Shown piece by piece: positions 1,754-42,119 of a stretch of 64,000 nt of DNA. The stretch is taken from NCBI GenBank assembly GCA_016213665.1, contig JACQZX010000035.1, forward strand, positions 1,037 through 65,036, written 5' to 3'. Numbering within the stretch: position 1 is the first letter of the stretch; each line of letters opens with the position of its first letter. The translations under genes and the position numbers were made by a program. Source of the DNA: Actinomycetota bacterium. GTDB lineage: Bacteria > Actinomycetota > Acidimicrobiia > Acidimicrobiales > Ilumatobacteraceae. The notes under the pieces are model-generated. The model searched no databases. It was not told the DNA's origin and saw only the letters and a program-made list of their open reading frames with translations.

Positions 1754-1796
1754 CCCGCGCGTAGAGCACCGCACCCGTAGACTTCACGATGGTGGT

Positions 1797-2172
1797 GAGT
1801 CGGCCGGGTGGCCGCGGTACGGCTTGACCGTATCGAGGAAAGTCGGGACTCCACAGAGCAGAGTGCTGGCGTGAGCCAGGTCGGGGCGACCTGACGGAAG
1901 TGCAACAGAGAGAGACCGCCGATGGGCTGTTGGTCCTTGGACCGACAGCCACAGGTAAGGGTGCAACGGTGCGGTAAGAGCGCACCAGCGTGCGAGGCGA
2001 CTCGCACGGCTCGGTAAACCCCACTCGGAGCAAGGCCAAGCAGAGAGAACGGACTGCTCGTTCGCCGGCCCCGGTCGGCAACTCTCGGGTAGGCCGCATA
2101 GAGGGATGGTCACCGTCGACTCGCTTCGGCGATGGCGACACAGAATCCCGCTTACAGGCCGACTCACTACCG
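1797..2172 (+). ncRNA. rnpB: RNase P RNA, bacterial type A
   Basis: Universal motifs are present: GAGGAAAGTCGGGACTCCACAGAGCA, GTGCAACAGAGAG, GGTAAGGGTGCAACGGTGCGGTAAGAGCGCACCAG, GGTAAACCCCACTCGGAGCAAGGCCAAG and ACAGAATCCCGCTTA. P1 pairs 5' GAGTCGGCC (1797-) with 3' GGCCGACTC (2157-2165). The ends are good to a few nt. Confidence 0.9.
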
Positions 2173-2176
2173 CTAC
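2146..2176. repeat. attL: 31-bp direct repeat overlapping the 3' end of rnpB
   Basis: tcccgcttacaggccgactcactaccgctac is identical to 9786-9816. Confidence 0.85.
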
Positions 2177-2251
2177 CCCGCTGACCAGGGGAAACGCGGC
2201 CCGCCGGTCGGGTCGTGGACACATTCACGACACACGGCGTCACCAGCGTGC

Positions 2252-3406
2252 CTACAACGCCGCCTCCGAGCGCGGTAGCCACGACGCCGACGCCGCCTCA
2301 ATCGCGTCGCGCGTCCGCTCCTCGTCGGTCGGCCAAAGGTGCGTGTAGACGTCCAGGGTTTCGGCTGGCGAGGCATGACCCAGCACCGCTTGCACGGCGG
2401 CCACCGACAGCCCGGCGGCGATGAGCGACGATGCCGCAACGTGTCGCAGGTCGTGTGTTCGGGTGCGGTCGAGCCCCGCGGTCGCGCACGCCTGCCGGTA
2501 GTGATCCGACCAGTTCGACCGCGGCACCGGCCCGCCGCGCGTCGTCGTGAAGATCAACCCCTGGTCGCCAGCGGGGAACTCGGCCAAGTGCGCGGCGAGT
2601 AGCTCGACGACGCGCACCGGCACCGGGATGGTGCGTATGCCCGCTTTCGTCTTGGGCGATGCGAACCCGGTTTGGCCCGCGACGTTCGCGAGCTGGCGAT
2701 CGACGCGGATCGACCGTCGCAGGAAGTCGACACGATCGACGGTCAGCCCGAGGCACTCCCCCAGCCTGAGCCCCACCGTCGCCATGAGTAGGACACCGGC
2801 GCTCCATCGCGGCGGCATTCCCTCTGCCAGCTCGGGCACCTTGCCCGCCACCTGCGCGATGTGTCGTGGGTCGACTCGTCGCTCGGTCTTCGCGCCGACC
2901 TTGACGCGCTCCGCGGGATTCTTCACGATGCGCCCATCGTCGACCGCTTCACGCAGCACGGCGGCGAGCGTGAACACGACGGCGCGCGCGGTCGTCGACG
3001 CGACCGCCTTGCTTCCCGCGCCCGAGGCTGTGGTCGTGTCGCGCTGCAACGATCCAGCGAACTGCTTGACTGCCTCGCGGTCGATCGTGGAGAGTTGGCG
3101 TCGACCGAACGCGGGCACTAGGTGCTTCCTAATGTGCGCAGCAAAAGTCTCGGCCGTCGTTGGCTTCACGGTCTGGCGCTTCCGATCTAGCCATCGCTCG
3201 GCGTACTCAGCAAACGTCATCTTGCCCGCGGACGGGTCGACATACTCGCCGCTGTTCTTGCGATGTTCGATCGATGTGAGGAAGGCGTCAGCCTCCTCCT
3301 TCTTCTTGAACGTCTTGGAGCGTTGCGCGCCATCCGGCGTCCGGTATCGCACGCGATGCTGAACCGCCCGGCCGTTCTTGTCCCTGGTCGTGTCGATGCT
3401 TGCCAC
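2252..3406 (-). CDS. Tyrosine recombinase / phage-type integrase
   Basis: The C-terminal catalytic signature is present: THDLRHVAASSLIAAG ... LGHASPAETLDVYTHLW. An N-terminal SAM-like core-binding region is also present. Start set to GTG 3406, preceded by AAGGAGG with a 7-nt spacer (the ORF opens at 3454). Confidence 0.9.
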   Translation of the reverse strand: MASIDTTRDKNGRAVQHRVRYRTPDGAQRSKTFKKKEEADAFLTSIEHRKNSGEYVDPSAGKMTFAEYAERWLDRKRQTVKPTTAETFAAHIRKHLVPAFGRRQLSTIDREAVKQFAGSLQRDTTTASGAGSKAVASTTARAVVFTLAAVLREAVDDGRIVKNPAERVKVGAKTERRVDPRHIAQVAGKVPELAEGMPPRWSAGVLLMATVGLRLGECLGLTVDRVDFLRRSIRVDRQLANVAGQTGFASPKTKAGIRTIPVPVRVVELLAAHLAEFPAGDQGLIFTTTRGGPVPRSNWSDHYRQACATAGLDRTRTHDLRHVAASSLIAAGLSVAAVQAVLGHASPAETLDVYTHLWPTDEERTRDAIEAASASWLPRSEAAL

Positions 3407-3408
3407 TG

Positions 3409-3984
3409 TCAGCCCTCCTTGTTGTCGAGACTGCCGGCGAGAAGTCGCCGACACTTTGCAGTCATGCGGCCGCCGGTTCGGCCCTCACTCTGATCCGGTC
3501 GGTCGGTTATCAGGCCGCGGCGTTCCGCCTCAGCGAGCCACGTTCGCCATGTCTTTTCCGACGGCCGCGAATTCGTCGGCGACTCACCCTCCTCGACGAG
3601 CCAGCGAATCGGTGTGCGCGGTTCGTGCTTCATCGCCGCCACGAACTCGGCTACCCGCTCCGCGTAAAACTCATCGCCCCGACCCCGTCGACCCGGCCGC
3701 GACCGCACGACCTCGCGGCGAAGCGACGGCGGCAACAGGAACCGCAACGGCGACGTCGTGAGCAGCTCCTCAATCCGGTCGTTGAGCTCGCCCATATTCA
3801 ACGTGCGGAGCACCGTCGCGGGCAGCGGTCGCGGCAGACCGTCCGACGACTCGACGGCCACGCGCCGCAGCCCCGCGCGTGCACCGTCGGAAACGACCTC
3901 AACGCGCAGATCCCAGCCCGGCAAGTACTCGCGTTGCACGCCCTCAATGCCGACTACTGGCCGACCGATGTGTCGCCACTCCAT
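3409..3984 (-). CDS. Hypothetical protein upstream of the integrase (possible element regulator)
   Basis: ATG 3984 is preceded by GGAGGGTAGGAAA. The stop lies 2 nt before the integrase start. No domain recognised. Confidence 0.5.
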   Translation of the reverse strand: MEWRHIGRPVVGIEGVQREYLPGWDLRVEVVSDGARAGLRRVAVESSDGLPRPLPATVLRTLNMGELNDRIEELLTTSPLRFLLPPSLRREVVRSRPGRRGRGDEFYAERVAEFVAAMKHEPRTPIRWLVEEGESPTNSRPSEKTWRTWLAEAERRGLITDRPDQSEGRTGGRMTAKCRRLLAGSLDNKEG

Positions 3985-3988
3985 TTTC

Positions 3989-4034
3989 CTACCCTCCGAA
4001 CAATGCAGACATCGTTGACAAGACGGGAGGGTAG
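3989..4034. promoter_or_regulatory. Divergent control region: 9-bp inverted repeat with an embedded TTGACA
   Basis: ctaccctcc (3989-3997) and ggagggtag (4026-4034) flank a consensus -35 hexamer TTGACA (4015-4020). The site lies between the leftward regulator/int genes and the rightward xis-rep operon. Confidence 0.4.
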
Positions 4035-4086
4035 CAGAGTACAACGGGAACTATCCACGTTTCAGACGATCATGGAGGAACAAGAG

Positions 4087-4278
4087 ATGGTTGAGAACCT
4101 CCTCACCTGCACCGAAACCGCCGAGCATCTCGGCGTCCCAGAAAAGACACTCGCCCAGTGGCGCTATCACGGCAAGGGTCCGGCCTACGTGAAGATCGGC
4201 AAATACGTGCGCTACCGCCCCGGCGACGTCGCGGCGTACCTCGCCGAAAACACCGTGCAACCGCGACCCGCGGCGTGA
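4087..4278 (+). CDS. Excisionase-like (MerR/Xis-type) helix-turn-helix protein
   Basis: LTCTETAEHLGVPEKTLAQWRYHGKGPAYVKIGKYVRYRPGDVAAYL is the classic excisionase-family HTH. ATG 4087 is preceded by GGAGGA; an alternative ATG lies at 4072. Confidence 0.8.
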   Translation: MVENLLTCTETAEHLGVPEKTLAQWRYHGKGPAYVKIGKYVRYRPGDVAAYLAENTVQPRPAA

Positions 4279-4411
4279 CCCGCTCGCGAACGAGGCCAGC
4301 CGAAGGGCTGGCCCCGCTGGTCGAATCGCCGCCACAGCGCACCGACAGCTGGCACGTTACCGCGGCAGCTGCGAGCTGGCGCGCCATCGACGCACTCGAC
4401 GCGGGGCGCTG

Positions 4412-5824
4412 ATGGCCGCGCAGCGCACAAAACCTGCGGTCGCGCAGCGGCCGATTCCGCACAACCTCCCAGCGGAAGAAAGCACACTCGGCACGATGCT
4501 CCTGTCGCTGGACGCAGCCCGCGCCGTCGTCGAGCTGGTGACCGCCGCCGACTTTTTCAAGCCCGCCCACGGTCACATTTTCCACGCGATCACGCAGCTC
4601 CTCGCCAAGCCTGACCCGCGCGTCGACGTCGTGCTGGTCGACGAACAGCTGCGCCAGAACGGGCTACATGATGAGGCTGGCGGATCGCAGTTCCTCATGG
4701 AGCTAACGACCGCGACCACGTCGATCGGAAGCGCGGCGAAGTACGCGGCCATCGTTAGGAACACCGCGGTCCAGCGCCGGATGATCGCGACCGCTGCGCA
4801 GATCACCGACCTCGGCTACATGACCGACGACCCGACGACGGCGATCACGCGTGCGCGCCAGCTCGTCGCCGACCTCGACGCGACACGGATGATCCACGCC
4901 GACGAGCCGATCGAACTGATCGACTGGTCAACGCTTCACGACCGCGGTGACGAGTACATCGACGGCGTGCTCATGCCCGCCCGCTGGTCCGCGTGGTGTG
5001 CCAGCGCGAAAGTGGGCAAGAGCACCCTCGCGGTGTGCCTGACGACTTCCGTCTCGAAAGGGATCAGCCCGCTCGACGGCACTCGCCGCGACCCGCTGAC
5101 CGTGCTGTACATCGACGCCGAGATGGGCCGACACGACCTGCACGAACGACTTGTCGACCTCGGCCACGACCCGGCGAAGCTCACCCGCTGGCACGCCAGT
5201 GACCTCCCCCCGAAGCTCGACACAGCCGAGGGTGGAAACGCGATCGTCGCCGCCACGCGTCAGCTCAGTGCCGCCATCGTCGTCATCGACGGCATCAACG
5301 GCGTCGTCTCGGGTGCCGAGAAGGACGACACCACCTGGCGCGCGTTCTACGACTGCACGGTCCGACCGCTGAAGCGCGACGGCGTCGCAGTGCTGACGCT
5401 CGACAACCTCGGCAAAGACCACACGCTCGGCCCACGCGGCTCGTCCGTCAAACTCGACAAGGCCGACGCCATCGTCCGACTCACCCGCACCGACAACGGC
5501 ATCCGACTGCAAGCAACCCACCGCCGATCCACCGCGTTCGACGCCGAACTCACCCTCACCGCGTACGGACTCGACGGCACCGAGGCGGTCGCGTTCCGCA
5601 GGACGTCATCGGCATGGCCCGACGGAACCAGCGACGCCGTCGCACTCCTCGACCAGCTCGGCCTACCCGCTGACGCCGGCCGCAACCGCGCCCGGCAGAT
5701 CCTCAAGGACGCCGGTCGACCGATGAGCGACAACCTGCTCAAAGCCGCGCTGCGCTACCGCAAATCCCACGTCGAAACCATCCCGCTGCCGCTGGAAGAA
5801 GGCCCACAAGATGAGACGTTCTGA
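4412..5824 (+). CDS. Replication protein: DnaB-N-terminal-like domain fused to a RecA-fold (RepA/AAA_25-like) ATPase
   Basis: The N-terminus PHNLPAEESTLGTMLLSLDAARAVVELVTAADFFKPAHGHIF resembles the DnaB N-domain. A Walker A motif is present (SAKVGKSTLAV), and VIDGING resembles Walker B. Confidence 0.7.
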   Translation: MAAQRTKPAVAQRPIPHNLPAEESTLGTMLLSLDAARAVVELVTAADFFKPAHGHIFHAITQLLAKPDPRVDVVLVDEQLRQNGLHDEAGGSQFLMELTTATTSIGSAAKYAAIVRNTAVQRRMIATAAQITDLGYMTDDPTTAITRARQLVADLDATRMIHADEPIELIDWSTLHDRGDEYIDGVLMPARWSAWCASAKVGKSTLAVCLTTSVSKGISPLDGTRRDPLTVLYIDAEMGRHDLHERLVDLGHDPAKLTRWHASDLPPKLDTAEGGNAIVAATRQLSAAIVVIDGINGVVSGAEKDDTTWRAFYDCTVRPLKRDGVAVLTLDNLGKDHTLGPRGSSVKLDKADAIVRLTRTDNGIRLQATHRRSTAFDAELTLTAYGLDGTEAVAFRRTSSAWPDGTSDAVALLDQLGLPADAGRNRARQILKDAGRPMSDNLLKAALRYRKSHVETIPLPLEEGPQDETF

Positions 5825-5852
5825 CGACCCAAAACCTGGGCGAGCTTTCCCC

Positions 5853-5951
5853 CGCCCAGCTTGTCCGACCATTTCGCCCAGGCCCGACGCCCAGCCCGAC
5901 GAAACCCACACGACCAACGGCTCGCCCAGCCCTGCGCCCAGGTTCGCCCAG
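5853..5951. repeat. Iteron-like array: six copies of CGCCCAG
   Basis: CGCCCAG starts at 5853, 5875, 5888, 5923, 5935 and 5945. Longer forms are tTCGCCCAGG at 5874 and 5944, and cTCGCCCAGc at 5922. The array lies immediately downstream of the replication gene. Confidence 0.6.
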
Positions 5952-5981
5952 GTACCCGCGGCTGAAGGGGGTGGCGGGGGT

Positions 5982-6146
5982 GTGGTGCGTAGCCCACCCC
6001 CGCAACCCAGCCCAGAGCCCGGCGGCTGCGACCACTGCAACGCGTACCAAACCGTCACCGCCGACCCTCAACTGCCGGGCCTATGGCACAACCGCATCCA
6101 CCACGACGACTGGTGCCCGTGGCTCGCGAGCAAGGAGCACCGATGA
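5982..6146 (+). CDS. Small Cys/His-containing hypothetical protein
   Basis: GGCDHCNAYQ...WHNRIHHDDWCPW. GTG 5982/5985 follows a G-rich SD-like stretch. The Pro-rich N-terminal part of the longer ORF (from 5811) coincides with the iteron DNA and is probably non-coding. Confidence 0.35.
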   Translation: MVRSPPPQPSPEPGGCDHCNAYQTVTADPQLPGLWHNRIHHDDWCPWLASKEHR

Positions 6147-6173
6147 CAACCCACCACGCGAGGAACCCCCACC

Positions 6174-6422
6174 GTGATCGACACCTACCGGCCCCAGTGG
6201 CACCGAAACGCCGCATGCCACGGCCAAACGTCGAGCTTCTTCCCGAAGCGCGGCCAGCCCATCGACGACGCCCGCGCCATCTGCGCAGCTTGCCCAGTAC
6301 TCGACCAATGCCGCGAGTACGTCACCCGCGTCGCCGCGCCCGAGATGTACGGCGTGTGGGCAGGACTCAGCGAACGACAACGACGACAGCTGCGCCGCGC
6401 TCGACGCGCCAGCTCGACGTGA
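6174..6422 (+). CDS. WhiB-family transcription factor (Fe-S, Wbl)
   Basis: Four Cys are present (AACHG ... ICAACPVLDQC). The GVWAG turn and an Arg-rich C-terminal tail (SERQRRQLRRARR) follow. Confidence 0.85.
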   Translation: MIDTYRPQWHRNAACHGQTSSFFPKRGQPIDDARAICAACPVLDQCREYVTRVAAPEMYGVWAGLSERQRRQLRRARRASST

Positions 6423-6587
6423 CGCCCACCCCCCCAGGGGTACCAACGCGGGCGGTCGGGCGGTCAGGGTCAAAGGGGGCTGCGCGGTGACGTGAGGATG
6501 AATTGCGCGCTCGTTTTTAGCGCTCCCCGAGTGCAACCAATCGACCCGCCCCCCAAGGGCAAAACCAGAGCAGAAGGAGACCAACGA

Positions 6588-6857
6588 ATGAGCAACGACG
6601 ACGACACGACTGAGGGTTTCGACGGCGAGCATCGCTTCGAGCTGAACGGTGACGAGCTGACCACGTCGGCACCGGCGGTGCTGGTGGTGCTGGATGAGGA
6701 CTGGTGGCGCAAGCTGGTCGCGCAGCTCGACGATGTCGGCATCGACAAGCTGCTGGCTGGTGAGCTGCGGTACACCGCGTTCGCTGACGACGGGGTGGCA
6801 TCGTTGCCGCTGGTCCCGCCGCAATGGCTCCGCGATGAAATCGAGTCGGAGTTGTAG
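6588..6857 (+). CDS. Acidic hypothetical protein upstream of the capsid gene
   Basis: ATG 6588 is preceded by GAAGGAGA. The product is 89 aa and acidic, with no domain recognised. Confidence 0.5.
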   Translation: MSNDDDTTEGFDGEHRFELNGDELTTSAPAVLVVLDEDWWRKLVAQLDDVGIDKLLAGELRYTAFADDGVASLPLVPPQWLRDEIESEL

Positions 6858-6995
6858 AGTGCCCCTGTTCGGTCGAGCGATTCGATCGGGCGGAACTCCA
6901 GGGCGCGATGCCCACCCGTCCAGAGGTGCAGGCGCGAGGCCGCACGACTTGCCGGTGACTTCCCCGCATCGACTAGCCCAGGAGGCTTCACGCAC

Positions 6996-7811
6996 ATGCC
7001 CGTAACCACTGAAAGTTTCGACGGCTTCACTTGCCGCGATGACCTTGCGACGTTCGTCGCCAACGCGGCGGTAGGTGGCGCGCCGTTCGCGCGTTCACTC
7101 ACGCCGCTGCCAACTGAACGCGGTGGTGTCGCGTTCCCGACCGTCGCGCCCGACGGATTCGATTGGGTGAGCGAAGGCGCGCCGATTCCCGAGGTCGATC
7201 TGCACGACGACGCGAATGTTGTCGCCGTCGCCAAGCTCGCCGGCCTCGTGAAGATGAGCAACGAGTTCGTTGGCGACAACGAGCTGCCGATCTCGAACCT
7301 GCTGCGCGACGCCGTAGCGGACTCGATGGGTCCAAAGCTCGACGTCGGTCTGCTGTTCGGCGGCGGAGCACCCGAGCCGAACGGGATCCTCGCGCTCGCC
7401 GCCGAGTCAGTGATCGGCCCCGACTTTCGTTCGTCGATCATCGGCGCGTGGGGTGAGCTCGTCGATGCAGGCGCGAACCCGGAGAGCATCGTCGCGTTCG
7501 CGAGCGCGGGCGTCGTCGCATGGGAACTCGGCCGCACGAACGACCAGGGCACACCGGTGCACGCCGACGGCGCGGCCGCGATGGTCGGGCCGGGCATCAA
7601 GCTGGTAGCTGTTCCGTCGTTGTCGGCCGGTGCAACGCTGGTCGCTGACGTGTCGCGGTTGTTCCTCGTCTTGCGCGACGACTTCGAGGCGAAGTTCAGC
7701 GAGCACGCTGCGTTCGCCAACGACCAGACGGTCATGCGCGTGAAGGGTCGATTCGCGATCGCGTGCCCGACACCGGGCAAGGCGTTGCGCGTCATTCCGA
7801 ACGCGTCCTAA
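6996..7811 (+). CDS. HK97-type phage major capsid protein, short form (271 aa, no N-terminal delta/scaffold domain)
   Basis: The Phage_capsid-like pattern is VAVAKLAGLVKMSNEFVGDN...LLRDAVADSMGPKLDVGLLFGGGAPEPNGIL ... KLVAVPSL...LVADVSRLFLVLRDD...DQTVMRVKGRFA. The ATG is preceded by AGGAGG. Confidence 0.75.
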   Translation: MPVTTESFDGFTCRDDLATFVANAAVGGAPFARSLTPLPTERGGVAFPTVAPDGFDWVSEGAPIPEVDLHDDANVVAVAKLAGLVKMSNEFVGDNELPISNLLRDAVADSMGPKLDVGLLFGGGAPEPNGILALAAESVIGPDFRSSIIGAWGELVDAGANPESIVAFASAGVVAWELGRTNDQGTPVHADGAAAMVGPGIKLVAVPSLSAGATLVADVSRLFLVLRDDFEAKFSEHAAFANDQTVMRVKGRFAIACPTPGKALRVIPNAS

Positions 7812-8023
7812 GCGTTCCTTGATCGTCTCTTCAAGCCCGGCGATCGAGGGGCGACGGTCGCGCTGCTCGATCTTTCGGGCGAGCTGCGCGACTACCCCCG
7901 GTGCGTTCCCCATCCGCGTTTTTCTTCGTCGTTGAGCGCGGACGGGGGGCGGCCACCGTCACCAAAATGAGAACGGGACCGACCCGGCAAAGTCGGCCCC
8001 GATCCACACAACGAAGGAGCGTC

Positions 8024-8188
8024 ATGGTCTCCAGCGCAGAAGGCCCGCACGGTAGCGCGTGCGAAGTGATCGAGAAGCGGTCGTCGTTCGAGACTGCCGA
8101 CATCGGCGAAGTGCTCAACGAACTGACAGCGATGACCGCGGCCGAACGTCGCCAGCTCGCATGGTCGCGGTTCGATCGCGTCCCCTGA
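8024..8188 (+). CDS. Small hypothetical protein (54 aa)
   Basis: A strong SD (GAAGGAG) lies 5 nt upstream of ATG 8024. No domain recognised. Confidence 0.45.
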   Translation: MVSSAEGPHGSACEVIEKRSSFETADIGEVLNELTAMTAAERRQLAWSRFDRVP

Positions 8189-8290
8189 CTTAGGTCCCCC
8201 CGCCGCTAGAAATCCACCACAGCCGCTACACGTTCCCCCCGGCAGCGGACGAGCGCTCTCGAGTGCCTGGCTGCGCTCTACGCTGGAATC

Positions 8291-8515
8291 GTGTCCCTGT
8301 TGATTGAACCGCGGCCGTCGCGTCGAGCTGGTGCCAGCCGCGACCTGCTCGACGAGTGGGAAGCCAACGCGTACGCGGTGCGCCGCCACCACCTCGCAAC
8401 CGCGGCGAACACTCGTTTCGACGACGACCTTCCCCAGCAACCGTGGCGACACATAGCCGAAACTCGCGCAGCGCTCCACGCCCTCTCGTCTGGCACAGTT
8501 TGGGCCACAATATGA
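8291..8515 (+). CDS. Hypothetical protein (74 aa)
   Basis: GTG start. The stop overlaps the next ATG as ATGA (8512-8515). No domain recognised. Confidence 0.3.
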   Translation: MSLLIEPRPSRRAGASRDLLDEWEANAYAVRRHHLATAANTRFDDDLPQQPWRHIAETRAALHALSSGTVWATI

Positions 8516-9117
8516 ACGGCGCTCTGCTTGTGGCGTCGATCGCGACCGCCCTGTTCACGGCAGTACTCGCGTGGGTGACTTGGCAGCTTGTCAAATCCAC
8601 GAAGGAGATGGCCGACGCATCGAAGCTGATGGTGCGCGTCACGCAGGACGCCGCACCTCGGCCCGCCCTCGTTCCGTACCTGTTCATCTACGCCGACAAC
8701 GTCTTCCTCGATCTGCTCAACGCCGGCGACGGCGCAGCGATCGATGTCGACATCAAGATCACGTGGAACCGTCGGGACGACGCCGTGACGGTACTCCGGT
8801 CGAGCGAGACCCGCTGGCGTGCGTCCGTCCTTCCCGCCGGGAAGCGCGTGCGATTCAACCCCAAGGTGGGCGGCGAGGGTTGGCTTACCGTCAAAGCACT
8901 CGGTGTCCTAGAAAGCGTGACCGTCGTCGGCACGATGAAGGATGCGCGTGGGGACGGGCTCACGGTCAACGCGTCGATCGACGAGCCGGGCAAGCTGCAC
9001 GACTTCGAGGTCGAAGCACAACGCCAATACCCGTCGAACTACGAACCCGACGAAATCGTCGCGGCGTCACTCCAGAAGATCGCCAACGTCATCGAGAAGC
9101 GACTCCCTCAGAGCTGA
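8512..9117 (+). CDS. N-terminally membrane-anchored hypothetical protein (201 aa)
   Basis: One N-terminal TM helix (LLVASIATALFTAVLAWVTWQLV) is followed by a beta-rich soluble domain (LLNAGDGAAIDVDIKITW...). No family recognised. Confidence 0.5.
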   Translation: MNGALLVASIATALFTAVLAWVTWQLVKSTKEMADASKLMVRVTQDAAPRPALVPYLFIYADNVFLDLLNAGDGAAIDVDIKITWNRRDDAVTVLRSSETRWRASVLPAGKRVRFNPKVGGEGWLTVKALGVLESVTVVGTMKDARGDGLTVNASIDEPGKLHDFEVEAQRQYPSNYEPDEIVAASLQKIANVIEKRLPQS

Positions 9118-9123
9118 CGGTTG

Positions 9124-9627
9124 CTACGGAAGCTTGTCGGGGCAGAAGGTCGACAGCGCTAATTCCTGGAAGCTGCCCGCAAAGTCGTCGCCGAGCGTCG
9201 CGATCATGTCCGTCACGTCGCCCGCGCACAACGTCCGGGCGAAAGCCACAGCGTCGATCGCCGAGCCGTCCGACTCGGGCACGCCGATCTGGAAGCGTTC
9301 TATCGCCTCGGCGCGGAACGCGTCTTCGTCGATGCCGTCACCGACGGGCGGCAGCGTTGTCACTCCGAGCTCGATCGCCAGGTCGGTCGTGCAGTAACTC
9401 GCTACGACCCTGTCGATCTCATCGGGCGTCGCCGGCGTTCCCACGGCCAACGACTGGCAGTAGTTCTTGAGATAGCCGAGCGCGGCGTCGTCATTGACGA
9501 ACGCATCAGCGTCAACCGCTCGCCAGTCCTTAAGGAACCGTTCCCGAGTCGATGGCTCGTCTGAAGTGCTGGAGCAACCCGCGAGCGCGGTCAGCGCCAC
9601 GCCGATGAGTACGAAGGTCTTGGTCAT
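9124..9627 (-). CDS. Putative secreted lipoprotein
   Basis: MTKTFVLIGVALTALAGCSS gives a signal peptide plus lipobox. The mature domain contains 4 Cys. It lies inside the element, next to attR. Confidence 0.6.
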   Translation of the reverse strand: MTKTFVLIGVALTALAGCSSTSDEPSTRERFLKDWRAVDADAFVNDDAALGYLKNYCQSLAVGTPATPDEIDRVVASYCTTDLAIELGVTTLPPVGDGIDEDAFRAEAIERFQIGVPESDGSAIDAVAFARTLCAGDVTDMIATLGDDFAGSFQELALSTFCPDKLP

Positions 9628-9785
9628 CGCCAGGACGCTACATGTCGTGGTCGCGACCGTGACACAAGAAAGACACAGCGTGTCGGGAAGTGGCAGGAAA
9701 TAACGGGAACCACGAGGATGCATCGCCGCAGGTAGTCGGCCCTTTCGATGAATCACCGCAGGTCGTCGATGGTGCCTCAATCGTT

Positions 9786-9816
9786 TCCCGCTTACAGGCC
9801 GACTCACTACCGCTAC
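9786..9816. repeat. attR: displaced copy of the rnpB 3' end
   Basis: 31/31 identity with 2146-2176. No rnpB body lies upstream of it. Confidence 0.85.
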
Positions 9817-9930: not shown

Positions 9931-10239
9931 ATGTACACACTTGGGGCAATCTTGTTGTTGGCAGTCTTGTTGGGGGCCGTGGTCGCAGTAATCGACTCGG
10001 TGCTTGACGTTGCCAAGCTCAAGGACGTTGTCGCGAAAATACCAGTGATCGGGGCTCATTGGGGTCTCGGCATCAGCATCCTCATGATCTGGCTTCTCGA
10101 TCTGGCGCCAGCCGCCGGATGGGGAGTCTGGATGAAGGACGACTGGATGAACATTGTGGCCAATGGCGCCATCGTCTACGGGGCTATCCCGTTGAAGGAT
10201 GCCGTCGTGTCAATGGTCAATAAGGGCCTTCGCGCCTAA
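9931..10239 (+). CDS. Small multi-pass membrane protein (102 aa)
   Basis: Three hydrophobic segments are present. An SD-like GAGAGGGGAAAG precedes the ATG. Codon usage is more A/T-rich than in neighbouring genes, and a strong terminator follows. Confidence 0.6.
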   Translation: MYTLGAILLLAVLLGAVVAVIDSVLDVAKLKDVVAKIPVIGAHWGLGISILMIWLLDLAPAAGWGVWMKDDWMNIVANGAIVYGAIPLKDAVVSMVNKGLRA

Positions 10240-32945: not shown

Positions 32946-33019
32946 TGGGCGCAGAGGGACTCGAACCCCCGACATCTTCCTTGTAAGGGAAGCGCTCTAA
33001 CCAACTGAGCTATGCGCCC
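32946..33019 (-). tRNA. tRNA-Val (anticodon TAC)
   Basis: Cloverleaf: GGGCGCA/TGCGCCC acceptor stem, anticodon loop CTTACAA, T-arm GGGGGTTCGAGTCCCTC. Confidence 0.9.
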
Positions 33020-41875: not shown

Positions 41876-41948
<73 letters not shown>

Positions 41949-42043: not shown

Positions 42044-42119
42044 TGGCTCCGAGAGCAGGGCTCGAACCTGCGACCCGCTGATTAACAGTCAGCTGCTCTG
42101 CCAACTGAGCTATCTCGGA
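42044..42119 (-). tRNA. tRNA-Asn (anticodon GTT), CCA encoded
   Basis: Acceptor stem TCCGAGA/TCTCGGA, anticodon loop CTGTTAA, T-arm GCAGGTTCGAGCCCTGC, 3' GCCA. Confidence 0.9.

What the first reader, a model, noticed from the sequence alone, without database searches (positions are those of the whole stretch)
2146..9816. Integrative element that uses the 3' end of the RNase P RNA gene (rnpB) as its attachment site
The 31-mer tcccgcttacaggccgactcactaccgctac occurs twice in direct orientation. At 2146-2176 it forms the last ~27 nt of a complete type-A rnpB, including the 3' strand of P1. At 9786-9816 it is not preceded by any rnpB body. A tyrosine integrase gene starts 76 bp inside the left copy, and an Xis-like gene lies 1.9 kb in. 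This is the architecture of tRNA/tmRNA 3'-end integration, in which the element supplies a replacement 3' end so that the essential RNA stays intact. Here it is applied to rnpB. tRNA and tmRNA genes are the textbook RNA-gene targets; to my knowledge rnpB is at most sparsely documented as an attB. The perfect 31/31 identity suggests a recent or still mobile element.
Basis: partly seen in the sequence, partly recalled or inferred. Interest (0 to 1): 0.8.

Follow-up and report, generated by a model that had tools for sequence, protein, structure and literature searches.

The report
Mobile element inserted in RNase P gene
A 7.6-kb virus-like mobile element sits in the end of the essential RNase P RNA gene and carries its own copy of that end so the gene stays whole; related elements do the same in many actinobacteria, a target I could not find described in the searchable literature.

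Summary
An exact 31-bp direct repeat (2146-2176, 9786-9816) brackets 7,640 bp. The left copy is the last 25 nt of a complete type-A rnpB (Rfam, 1796-2170) plus 6 nt. An intact tyrosine integrase ends 75 nt inside the left copy.

Relatives with the same flanking gene order lack the insert. No same-species genome was available, so the empty site is shown by gene order, not nucleotide by nucleotide.

The pattern recurs. Of 171 related integrase loci, 116 carry rnpB or its 3' fragment, and none has a tRNA or tmRNA near int. In the window and ten other bounded elements (2-10.6 kb) the repeat starts at the same base, directly after ACAGAA, where the 3' strand of the catalytic P4 helix begins. One lineage occurs both integrated (L078) and as a free circle (L086). 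The two are 98% identical and diverge exactly at that base.

The cargo (Xis-like HTH, DnaB/AAA_25, WhiB, a 271-aa HK97 capsid protein) matches a family of roughly 8-kb satellite-like elements with swappable recombinases.

This is a new variant of tRNA/tmRNA-type integration. Ten full-text literature searches found no report of rnpB as an attB.

The parts
1796..2170 (+). rnpB, RNase P RNA type A, complete. Its last 25 nt (2146-2170: the P4 3' strand, a linker and the P1 3' strand) lie inside the attL core.
   Evidence: Rfam RF00010 scores 218.8 bits, E = 1.2e-69, over model positions 1-367 of 367. All 8 P4 pairs are intact.
2146..2176 (+). attL core: the left copy of the 31-bp identity block.
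   Evidence: Exact repeat with 0 expected by chance. It starts at ACAGAA+6, the same base as in ten other bounded elements.
2181..2188 (+). Conserved element-side motif CTGACCAG (family pattern YT[GAT]ACYWG), 35 nt from the core start. Candidate integrase recognition site in the P' arm.
   Evidence: The motif sits at +35/36 in 51 convergent-type loci and at +57/58 in 10 tandem-type loci. That is 61 of 99 loci against 0.94 expected from shuffles. It is absent at that position in empty sites.
2252..3454 (-). Tyrosine integrase, a 400-aa ORF (called as 384 aa by NCBI), intact, convergent with rnpB.
   Evidence: PF00589 scores 7e-23; PF14659 and PF22022 also match; phrog_1 scores 1e-67. R230, K268, H334, R337, H360 and Y370 are invariant across 25 homologues. 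P0001 is 100% identical.
3409..4044 (-). orf211, a conserved partner of int. It has a weak HTH match and may be a regulator or repressor.
   Evidence: phrog_11473 scores 1.7e-4. Homologues at 67-72% identity lie next to int in L001, L002, L105 and L106. The codon-position GC pattern supports coding.
4078..4278 (+). HTH_17 protein: candidate excisionase (recombination directionality factor) or regulator.
   Evidence: PF12728 scores 9.5e-11 and phrog_66 (excisionase) scores 3.6e-11. A homologue lies near int in 41 of the first 97 loci.
4412..5824 (+). Replication protein with a DnaB N-terminal domain and an AAA_25 ATPase domain, 470 aa.
   Evidence: PF00772 scores 1.4e-21 and PF13481 scores 1.8e-16. 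Homologues occur in 21 integrase loci and in L187, L189 and L190.
5811..6146 (+). orf111, an uncertain gene call.
   Evidence: No family match. The codon GC pattern is ambiguous.
6174..6422 (+). WhiB-family regulator.
   Evidence: PF02467 scores 9.4e-18. It occupies the same position in L106, L187, L188 and L189.
6492..6857 (+). orf121, a conserved gene immediately upstream of the capsid gene. It may be a scaffold or packaging accessory.
   Evidence: Homologues lie directly upstream of the capsid gene in L106, L187, L188 and L189. No family match.
6996..7811 (+). HK97-fold major capsid protein, 271 aa, lacking the N-terminal delta (scaffolding) domain.
   Evidence: PF05065 scores 4.2e-15 (56.3 bits against a cutoff of 24.2). 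TIGR01554 scores 45.1 bits against a cutoff of 27.5 and aligns to positions 113-373 of 385. 79 homologues were found, many on 7.6-9.4 kb contigs.
7901..8515 (+). Two small ORFs, orf95 (7901-8188) and orf74 (8291-8515), function unknown.
   Evidence: Homologues lie after the capsid gene in L190 and L106. Coding signal is weak.
8506..9117 (+). orf203, a predicted membrane protein of unknown function (cargo).
   Evidence: Strong codon-position GC pattern. No family or defence-system match.
9124..9627 (-). Putative lipoprotein, 167 aa (cargo).
   Evidence: The N-terminus has a signal peptide and lipobox-like sequence (LAGCSS). A 68% identical homologue lies after the capsid gene in L189.
9722..9768 (+). 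Two 17-bp direct repeats, ATCGCCGCAGGTAGTCG (9722-9738) and ATCACCGCAGGTCGTCG (9752-9768), spaced 30 bp apart. Candidate arm-type integrase sites in the P arm.
   Evidence: Repeat scan of the reconstructed attP. Analogous repeats flank the cores of L086, L087 and L088.
9786..9816 (+). attR core: the right copy of the identity block, an orphan rnpB 3' fragment.
   Evidence: Exact copy. No rnpB body precedes it.

Best explanation
Region 2177-9816 is a 7.64-kb integrative element inserted by site-specific recombination into the 3' end of the single rnpB gene of an Ilumatobacteraceae-like (Acidimicrobiia) genome.

How it works:
- The element's attP carries a 31-bp mimic of the rnpB 3' end. The mimic covers the 3' strand of helix P4 (the catalytic-core pseudoknot), the 3' strand of P1 and 6 nt of trailer.
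- Its tyrosine integrase recombines this with the identical sequence in rnpB. Crossover probably occurs at or shortly after the first base following ACAGAA.
- After integration, the 5' 350 nt of rnpB are host DNA. The 3' portion of the last 25 nt, downstream of the crossover point, is supplied by the element, so the essential ribozyme gene stays intact. The displaced host copy becomes the orphan fragment at attR.
- Excision, presumably helped by the HTH_17 protein, would restore attB and yield a 7.64-kb circle.

The element itself is most likely a phage satellite. It has integration, regulation, replication and one delta-less HK97 capsid gene, but no portal, large terminase, tail or lysis genes, so it would need a helper phage to spread.

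Shown: the anatomy; intact rnpB and integrase; recurrence of the same site in many lineages; circular relatives with attP; an integrated/free pair of one lineage.

Inferred: the exact crossover position, the roles of the HTH_17 protein and the repeats, current mobility of this particular copy, and helper dependence.
For: - Exact repeat and rnpB coordinates.
- The integrase is intact, with invariant catalytic residues.
- Flanking gene order is conserved in relatives that lack the insert. rnpB to His_Phos_1 is 1.1-1.4 kb in L098 and L104, against 8.75 kb in the window.
- Family census: 38 of 58 informative metagenome loci have rnpB. 60 of 80 species-representative genomes have rnpB in the locus, 46 of them within 240 bp of int. 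Overall, 116 of 171 loci carry rnpB or its 3' fragment, and no locus has a tRNA or tmRNA within 500-600 bp of int.
- All 12 close relatives (59-77% identical) have rnpB within about 0.5 kb of int.
- The repeat starts at ACAGAA+6 in L064, L106, L109, L114, L117, L128, L141, L143, L148 and L154 as well as the window.
- Contigs L086 and L092 are circular and carry int plus only the rnpB 3' fragment; Rfam finds no rnpB body.
- L078 (integrated) and L086 (circular) are 97.9% identical over 1,204 bp and diverge exactly at the core's 5' edge.
- P4 pairing is intact in 43 of 44 occupied sites, across four covarying variants.
- Rfam confirms a full rnpB convergent with int in five cultured isolates.
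- Satellite reading: the same backbone occurs in L086, L106, L187 (circular), L188, L189 and L190, some with HNH and Terminase_4 genes. IMG/VR files relatives as viral contigs.
Against: - No same-species genome was available, so a base-exact empty site for this element was not shown.
- There is no direct evidence that this copy excises. The 31-mer is absent from IMG/VR and no reads were available.
- G+C content gives no contrast with the flanks.
- Several close relatives have frameshifted int genes (L106, L112, L114, L127), so many copies of this family are decaying.
- No inverted-repeat core sites could be recognised, so the crossover position is not fixed by sequence.
- The satellite reading rests on gene content alone. 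No helper phage is known, and the window's copy has no recognisable small terminase or HNH gene.
Confidence: 0.9

Rival explanations
1. The element did integrate at rnpB by the same mechanism, but this copy is now a fixed, immobile remnant (a defective prophage or satellite) rather than an active element.
For: Close relatives show decay: split int genes in L106, L112, L114 and L127, a deleted rep gene in L106, a 2.1-kb remnant in L128, and an integrase-less scar in L103. G+C content is indistinguishable from the host. No excision product of this copy was found.
Against: The window's int is a single intact ORF with all catalytic residues. The HTH_17, rep, WhiB and capsid genes are intact with good coding signal. 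Both cores are perfect. Candidate arm repeats are present.
Confidence: 0.3
2. The element is an integrative plasmid of the actinomycete type (AICE-like) that spreads by conjugation, and the capsid-like gene is an encapsulin or a leftover.
For: Its size (7.6 kb), its int, xis and rep genes, its integration into a stable RNA gene and its actinobacterial host all resemble AICEs such as pSAM2 (from my own knowledge). The capsid-like protein of relative L086 also has a weak Linocin_M18/encapsulin match at 2.5e-5.
Against: No FtsK/TraB-type translocase, Spd or relaxase domain appears in any ORF. The capsid protein passes the curated HK97 major-capsid model. Backbone relatives carry HNH and Terminase_4 packaging genes next to the capsid gene. 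geNomad-based IMG/VR files relatives as viral.
Confidence: 0.12
3. The integrated arrangement is an assembly artefact. A free circular element whose attP shares 31 bp with rnpB was joined into the chromosome contig by the assembler.
For: The window comes from a metagenome-assembled genome. Free circular relatives exist. In MAG GCA_965610865.1 a related element ends a contig while that MAG's rnpB site is empty.
Against: A 31-bp repeat is shorter than the k-mers usually used in the last assembly rounds. For example, 127-bp and 123-bp terminal overlaps are seen in related contigs. The same integrated arrangement occurs in dozens of independent assemblies, including cultured isolates and multi-megabase contigs. 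Even if this rival were true, the attP/attB relationship to rnpB would stand.
Confidence: 0.04
4. The repeat is a chance or duplication event unrelated to site-specific recombination, and the integrase lies next to rnpB by coincidence.
For: None beyond the bare possibility.
Against: No copies are expected by chance. rnpB is a single-copy gene, yet it lies within 240 bp of int in 46 of 80 species genomes. The repeat boundary is identical in eleven elements with different sequences. A matched attP/attL pair exists.
Confidence: 0.01

Closest known systems
Genomic islands and prophages that integrate into the 3' ends of tRNA and tmRNA genes (Williams 2002 scheme, cited in PMC12540744 and PMC12884075; examples such as mycobacteriophage L5 at tRNA-Gly and ssrA islands are from my own knowledge)
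   Same: A tyrosine integrase gene lies next to the RNA gene. The identity block runs from a fixed internal point to just past the 3' end, so the gene is rebuilt from element DNA. An orphan 3' fragment sits at the far end. A small HTH protein serves as the likely excision factor.
   Different: The target is rnpB, a roughly 375-nt ribozyme, not a tRNA-shaped RNA. The block starts in the 3' strand of the P4 pseudoknot, whose partner strand lies about 300 nt upstream. There is no local stem-loop symmetry like the anticodon or T arm, and no inverted core repeats were recognised.
Enterococcus phage phiEf11 integration into ffs (4.5S RNA), reported as a novel attachment site in 2025 (PMC12540744)
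   Same: Integration is into a housekeeping non-coding RNA gene other than tRNA or tmRNA. The core is 27 nt, and attP lies about 74 nt from the end of the integrase gene. Here the core is 31 nt and the gap is 75 nt.
   Different: The RNA, the host phylum and the integrase lineage all differ. phiEf11 is a complete phage with experimental confirmation. The present case is a mini-element, known only from sequence, but found across many genera.
Phage satellites: PICI and capsid-forming PICI (cf-PICI) (PMC10111431 for PICIs; the cf-PICI description is from my own knowledge)
   Same: It is a small integrated element with int, regulators, its own replication protein and capsid or packaging genes, but no tail or lysis genes. 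A variable cargo slot follows the structural gene (a TIR protein in L189).
   Different: It is smaller (about 7.6-8 kb) and has a single delta-less capsid gene with no portal, protease or connector genes. The host phylum is Actinomycetota. No helper phage or induction is known. No sequence membership in any PICI family was tested or found.
Actinomycete integrative and conjugative elements (AICEs, e.g. pSAM2, SLP1) (from my own knowledge)
   Same: The host phylum, the size range, the int-xis-rep module and integration into the 3' end of a stable RNA gene.
   Different: No conjugation genes were found. A phage capsid gene is present instead, and the target is rnpB rather than a tRNA.

Membership tests
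Bacterial RNase P RNA, type A (RF00010) | Score above the Rfam gathering threshold over the full model with P1 paired | tested here: met
   218.8 bits against a threshold of 100, model positions 1-367 of 367.
Bacterial RNase P RNA, type A (RF00010) | Intact P4 pseudoknot between the 5' GGAAAGUC... strand and the 3' ACAGAA-proximal strand | tested here: met
   8 of 8 pairs in the window (AAGUCGGGA with UCCCGCUU, with the usual bulged U). 43 of 44 occupied sites are intact.
RNA-gene 3'-end integrating elements (tRNA/tmRNA class) | A tyrosine integrase is encoded next to the att site that overlaps the RNA gene | tested here: met
   The int stop codon is 75 nt from the core. The same arrangement holds in 46 of 80 species genomes.
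RNA-gene 3'-end integrating elements (tRNA/tmRNA class) | A direct-repeat identity block covers the 3' end of the gene, so the gene is reconstituted | tested here: met
   The 31-bp block is 25 nt of rnpB plus 6 nt. Ten other bounded elements have the same start point.
RNA-gene 3'-end integrating elements (tRNA/tmRNA class) | The target gene is a tRNA or tmRNA | tested here: not met
   The target is rnpB. ARAGORN finds no tRNA or tmRNA within 500-600 bp of int in any of the 177 loci scanned.
RNA-gene 3'-end integrating elements (tRNA/tmRNA class) | An empty site exists in relatives (sporadic occurrence) | tested here: met
   Shown at gene-order level in L098, L104, L100 and L102. Not shown base by base, because the nearest relatives are only about 70% identical in protein sequence.
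RNA-gene 3'-end integrating elements (tRNA/tmRNA class) | Excised circular form with attP | tested here: inconclusive
   Not found for this copy. Found for relatives: L086 and L092 are circular with only the rnpB fragment, and L078/L086 form a matched pair.
Heterobivalent (lambda/L5-type) tyrosine integrases | Catalytic R-K-H-R-H/W-Y residues | tested here: met
   R230, K268, H334, R337, H360 and Y370 are invariant in the 25-sequence alignment. PF00589 scores 7e-23.
Heterobivalent (lambda/L5-type) tyrosine integrases | An N-terminal arm-binding domain and arm-type repeats in attP | tested here: inconclusive
   About 80 residues precede the SAM-like domain, but Pfam detected no arm-domain model here. 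Candidate 17-bp direct repeats lie at 9722-9768, and repeats flank the cores in L086-L088. Binding was not tested.
Phage satellites (PICI / cf-PICI-like) | A small integrated element with int, regulators and its own replication gene, lacking tail and lysis genes | tested here: met
   Gene content. No tail, portal, large terminase or lysin family was detected.
Phage satellites (PICI / cf-PICI-like) | Genes that redirect or build capsids or packaging | tested here: met
   An HK97 capsid protein is present. Backbone relatives add HNH and Terminase_4 genes. The window copy has only the capsid gene and the conserved orf121.
Phage satellites (PICI / cf-PICI-like) | Induction and packaging depend on a helper phage | not testable with these tools
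   This needs experiments or a virome with particle-associated reads.
AICE (actinomycete integrative and conjugative elements) | An FtsK/TraB-type DNA translocase and spread genes | tested here: not met
   No such domain appears in any element ORF.

The most novel reading that the evidence does not exclude
Two linked claims remain open. First, Actinomycetota, especially Acidimicrobiia, host a widespread and undescribed family of roughly 8-kb capsid-encoding phage satellites with interchangeable recombinase modules. Second, a large tyrosine-integrase lineage has specialised on the RNase P RNA gene and crosses over inside the 3' strand of the catalytic P4 helix. Because that strand must pair with the host-encoded 5' strand, the att core has to co-vary with the host ribozyme (four variants were seen). 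That would make the rnpB sequence itself a determinant of host range for the element.
Probability: 0.45. Interest if true: 0.75.

Novelty: new variant of a known kind. Interest (0 to 1): 0.62.

Why it matters
- It adds rnpB, a universal and essential ribozyme gene, to the short list of stable-RNA genes used as chromosomal landing sites. It also shows this is a common habit of a large integrase lineage across Actinomycetota, not a one-off.
- The integrases and their roughly 30-bp cores are candidates for single-copy integration vectors in actinobacteria that are hard to engineer, because every genome has the target.
- The element-supplied segment includes one strand of the catalytic P4 helix. 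This is a natural experiment on how much of RNase P RNA can be swapped, and a possible link between ribozyme sequence and element host range.
- The roughly 8-kb capsid-encoding backbone may be a first glimpse of integrating phage satellites in Acidimicrobiia.
- Annotation pipelines that look only at tRNA and tmRNA genes will miss these islands.

Tried and rejected
- **Exact-sequence look-up of the 400-aa integrase:** nothing found, because the deposited gene call starts later (384 aa).
- **The 31-mer in IMG/VR:** absent.
- **Megablast of the element against 50,697 phage records:** no match.
- **Nearest integrases in cultured phages and plasmids:** at most 34% identical. Gordonia phages Finkle and Schmidt have no rnpB fragment or tRNA near int, so no cultured phage could be tied to this att site.
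- **Same-species empty site:** not obtainable. The closest orthologues of the upstream gene are at most 74% identical.
- **Inverted-repeat core sites around the crossover region:** only direct similarities were seen (ACAGAA versus ACAGGC; CTTACAGG versus CTGACCAGG). I did not build on them.
- **L103 scar as a crossover map:** the scar would place the crossover between +8 and +24 of the core. This rests on one decayed locus, so I treat it as a hint only.
- **Defence-system search of the cargo (PADLOC):** nothing.
- **Bounded 6-kb element of Geodermatophilus (L141):** only a transposase fragment was recognised.
- **Twenty integrase loci with enough flank but no rnpB:** Rfam showed no adjacent RNA gene. 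Their target remains unknown.
- **Literature:** ten full-text searches and eleven papers opened without finding rnpB described as an attB. The key TIGER paper (Mageeney 2020) is not in the library. One search was badly designed and uninformative.

Full report
**1. The observation**

The 31-mer TCCCGCTTACAGGCCGACTCACTACCGCTAC occurs exactly twice in the window, at 2146-2176 and 9786-9816, in direct orientation. None was expected in 100 shuffles. No third copy appears even with 9 mismatches allowed.

The Rfam model for bacterial type-A RNase P RNA matches 1796-2170 on the + strand at 218.8 bits over the whole model, with P1 fully paired. The left copy is therefore the last 25 nt of rnpB plus 6 nt of trailer. 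The right copy is not preceded by any rnpB body.

Between the two copies lie 7,640 bp. Their G+C content does not differ from the flanks.

**2. What lies between the repeats**

ORF listing, Pfam, PHROGs, NCBIfam and codon-position G+C give this gene map:

| Coordinates (strand) | Gene | Notes |
|---|---|---|
| 2252-3454 (-) | Tyrosine integrase | Intact; stop codon 75 nt from the core |
| 3409-4044 (-) | orf211 | Conserved partner of int, weak HTH match |
| 4078-4278 (+) | HTH_17 protein | Excisionase-like |
| 4412-5824 (+) | DnaB-N + AAA_25 replication protein | 470 aa |
| 6174-6422 (+) | WhiB regulator | |
| 6492-6857 (+) | orf121 | Conserved, unknown function |
| 6996-7811 (+) | HK97 major capsid protein | 271 aa; passes NCBI's curated model; lacks the delta domain |
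| 7901-8515 (+) | Two small ORFs | Weak coding signal |
| 8506-9117 (+) | Membrane protein | Cargo |
| 9124-9627 (-) | Lipoprotein | Cargo |

The integrase catalytic residues (R230, K268, H334, R337, H360, Y370) are invariant across 25 homologues. No portal, large terminase, tail, lysis or conjugation gene was detected.

**3. Is it an insertion?**

The source is a metagenome-assembled actinobacterial genome, and its nearest relatives are Ilumatobacter and Ilumatobacteraceae.

Orthologues of the gene just upstream of rnpB were traced to contigs of related genomes. L098 and L104 share this order: Ferritin_2, Ferritin_2, rnpB, one or two small variable genes, His_Phos_1, a 156-158-aa gene, CT398/Zn-ribbon, PBP. 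They have no integrase or capsid gene. The window has the same order with 7.6 kb extra.

Their rnpB 3' ends read AATCCCGCTTACAGGCCGACTCAC and then diverge. These relatives are only about 70% identical in protein sequence. The empty site is therefore shown at the level of gene order, not base by base.

L103 carries an integrase-less scar. A displaced copy of the rnpB 3' end matches the window's core at 30 of 31 positions and lies 1.9 kb downstream of L103's rnpB.

**4. The same site is used again and again**

Scans with an integrase alignment gave 80 metagenome loci, 17 IMG/VR loci and 80 species-representative genome loci.

- **Metagenome set.** 38 loci carry rnpB right after int. Twenty loci with enough flank have none.
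- **Genome set.** 60 of 80 carry rnpB, 46 of them within 240 bp of int. All 12 close relatives (59-77% identical) have rnpB within about 0.5 kb of int.
- **Alternative targets.** No tRNA or tmRNA lies within 500-600 bp of int in any locus.

Two layouts exist. In one, int converges on rnpB with a gap of about 50-170 bp, as in the window. In the other, rnpB is followed by int in tandem with a gap of about 150-240 bp.

In a neighbour-joining tree of 174 integrases:
- the window's clade is entirely convergent-type;
- the tandem type forms one clade;
- loci without rnpB fall into a few separate clades.

Rfam confirmed a full-length rnpB next to int in five cultured strains: Janibacter hoylei PVAS-1, Modestobacter sp. 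DSM 44400, Aeromicrobium sp. Root495, Myceligenerans indicum I2 and Geodermatophilus maliterrae WL48A.

**5. A fixed boundary**

Wherever the far end lies within the fetched DNA, a second partial copy of the rnpB 3' end bounds the element.

- In L064, L106, L109, L114, L117, L128, L141, L143, L148 and L154, as in the window, the repeat starts at exactly the first base after ACAGAA. The core sequences themselves differ between loci.
- Repeat lengths are 16-51 bp, usually 28-32 bp.
- Element sizes are 2.1-10.6 kb, mostly 6-10 kb.

That first base is the start of the 3' strand of P4, the catalytic-core pseudoknot. Its 5' strand (GGAAAGUC...) lies about 300 nt upstream, on the host side.

All eight P4 pairs are intact in 43 of 44 scorable occupied sites. 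Four covarying versions occur: CGGGA/TCCCG, CCGGA/TCCGG, CCGGG/CCCGG and CGGGG/CCCCG. Each element's core therefore matches its host's ribozyme.

**6. Free forms**

Several IMG/VR contigs have int followed about 100 bp later by only the rnpB 3' fragment, starting at the same base. Rfam finds no rnpB body in them.

Two of them, L086 (8,186 bp) and L092 (15,101 bp), have 127-bp terminal repeats, which indicates circular assemblies.

L086 and the integrated locus L078 are 97.9% identical over 1,204 bp covering int, the adjoining arm and the core. They part exactly at the 5' edge of the core, where L078 continues into the rnpB body and L086 into unrelated element DNA. This is an attL/attP pair of one lineage, and it is the best evidence that the site is used for integration and excision.

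No such pair was found for the window's own element.

**7. Likely recognition signals**

- An element-side motif, YT[GAT]ACYWG (CTGACCAG at 2181-2188), lies 35-36 nt from the core start in 51 convergent-type loci and 57-58 nt from it in 10 tandem-type loci. That is 61 of 99 loci against about 1 expected by chance. The motif is missing at that position in empty sites.
- The other arm of the window's reconstructed attP has two 17-bp direct repeats 30 bp apart (9722-9738 and 9752-9768). Similar repeats flank the cores of L086-L088.

These fit core-proximal and arm-type integrase sites, but binding has not been tested. I could not recognise inverted core repeats, so the exact crossover point is inferred only from the fixed boundary.

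**8. What kind of element**

The int plus HTH_17 pair is the conserved unit, found in 41 of the first 97 loci. The cargo varies.

The window's cargo belongs to a recognisable backbone: HTH, DnaB/AAA_25, WhiB, orf121, a 271-aa capsid protein, then small ORFs and variable cargo.

| Locus | Features |
|---|---|
| L106 | Same gene order as the window; int 77% identical; 6.6 kb |
| L187 | Circular, 7.9 kb; capsid 77% identical; serine recombinase instead of a tyrosine integrase |
| L188 | Large serine recombinase |
| L189 | TIR-domain protein as cargo |
| L190 | Carries HNH and Terminase_4 genes |

Capsid homologues sit repeatedly on contigs of 7.6-9.4 kb.

This gene content, the absence of tail and lysis genes, and the swappable recombinases fit a phage satellite best. 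An AICE-like plasmid is less likely because no transfer genes were found.

A 94-kb viral contig (L087) with phage-type replication genes has the same int/attP arrangement, so larger phages may use the site too.

**9. Comparison with what is known, and novelty**

The mechanism is the familiar one for tRNA and tmRNA genes. What differs is the target and the fact that the replaced segment includes a strand of a long-range catalytic helix.

Ten full-text searches of about 8 million papers, and eleven papers opened, gave no description of rnpB as an attachment site. A 2025 paper presents integration into ffs as novel and lists only tRNA, tmRNA and csRNA as RNA targets.

The large island databases could not be queried, and one key paper is not in the library. 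Such islands may therefore already be catalogued without having been discussed.

I rate the finding a new variant of a known kind.

**10. Verdict**

| Question | Assessment |
|---|---|
| Observation | Confirmed |
| 7.64-kb element integrated at the rnpB 3' end by a tyrosine integrase | Confidence about 0.9 |
| This copy is still mobile | About even odds |
| It is a helper-dependent satellite | Somewhat better than even |

Noticed in passing
L103:7746-10113 (ENA ERZ27315236 k141_49727): A relative's rnpB is followed 1.9 kb later by a displaced copy of the rnpB 3' end. The copy matches the window's core at 30 of 31 positions, which is closer than it matches L103's own rnpB end. No integrase lies between them. 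The interval holds a GNAT gene, a 102-aa membrane protein 76% identical to window 9931-10239, and a His_Phos_1 fragment. This looks like the scar of an older integration. It also hints that the 102-aa gene just outside the window's attR may itself be an element remnant.
   Followed up: partly
window 2181-2188; equivalent positions in 61 of 99 related loci: The conserved element-side motif YT[GAT]ACYWG sits at a fixed distance from the core: +35/36 in convergent-type elements and +57/58 in tandem-type elements. In tandem-type elements a TAAAAT box lies just upstream of it. The function is unknown; it could be an integrase site or a promoter element.
   Followed up: partly
L190:1-4900 and L104:11017-12500 (both from MAG GCA_965610865.1): The same MAG has an empty rnpB site on one contig. 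On another contig, a backbone relative of the window's element (capsid 79% identical, plus HNH and Terminase_4) runs off the contig end with no integrase visible. It may be integrated elsewhere, episomal, or polymorphic in the population.
   Followed up: no
L187:766-2169; L188:1579-2979: Elements with the same replication, WhiB and capsid backbone carry serine recombinases instead of the tyrosine integrase. L187 is a circular contig and L188 is integrated next to host genes. The integration module is therefore exchangeable.
   Followed up: partly
L189:6514-7554: A TIR-domain protein (346 aa) occupies the cargo slot after the capsid gene in a backbone relative. This suggests anti-phage defence cargo, as in other satellites. 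No known defence protein was detected in the window's cargo.
   Followed up: partly
L007, L008, L010, L012, L015, L023, L029, L031, L032, L034, L036, L044, L052, L057, L061, L063, L068, L073, L076, L077; also L136 (Nocardioides psychrotolerans), L138 (Parafrankia colletiae), L147 (Mumia xiangluensis): Several clades of the same integrase family are not next to rnpB or any other Rfam RNA gene. Their target is unknown. L031 and L034 have tRNA clusters about 0.7 kb downstream of int.
   Followed up: no
L106, L112, L114, L127 (int genes); L128: Close relatives of the window's integrase are split by frameshifts, or reduced to a fragment inside a 2.1-kb remnant that still has a perfect 28-bp repeat. 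Repeat perfection therefore does not indicate an active element.
   Followed up: partly
L169 and L172 (Promicromonospora spp.); also L117, L139, L144, L158, L166: In these loci rnpB lies 1-8 kb from int rather than adjacent. This could reflect tandem or nested elements at the same site.
   Followed up: no
L141:11772-11933: In Geodermatophilus maliterrae a c-di-AMP riboswitch lies about 240 bp beyond the 5' end of rnpB, on the side away from the element.
   Followed up: no
window 32946-33019, 41876-41948, 42047-42119 (- strand): Three tRNA genes lie elsewhere in the window. I did not examine them for neighbouring integrases or repeats.
   Followed up: no
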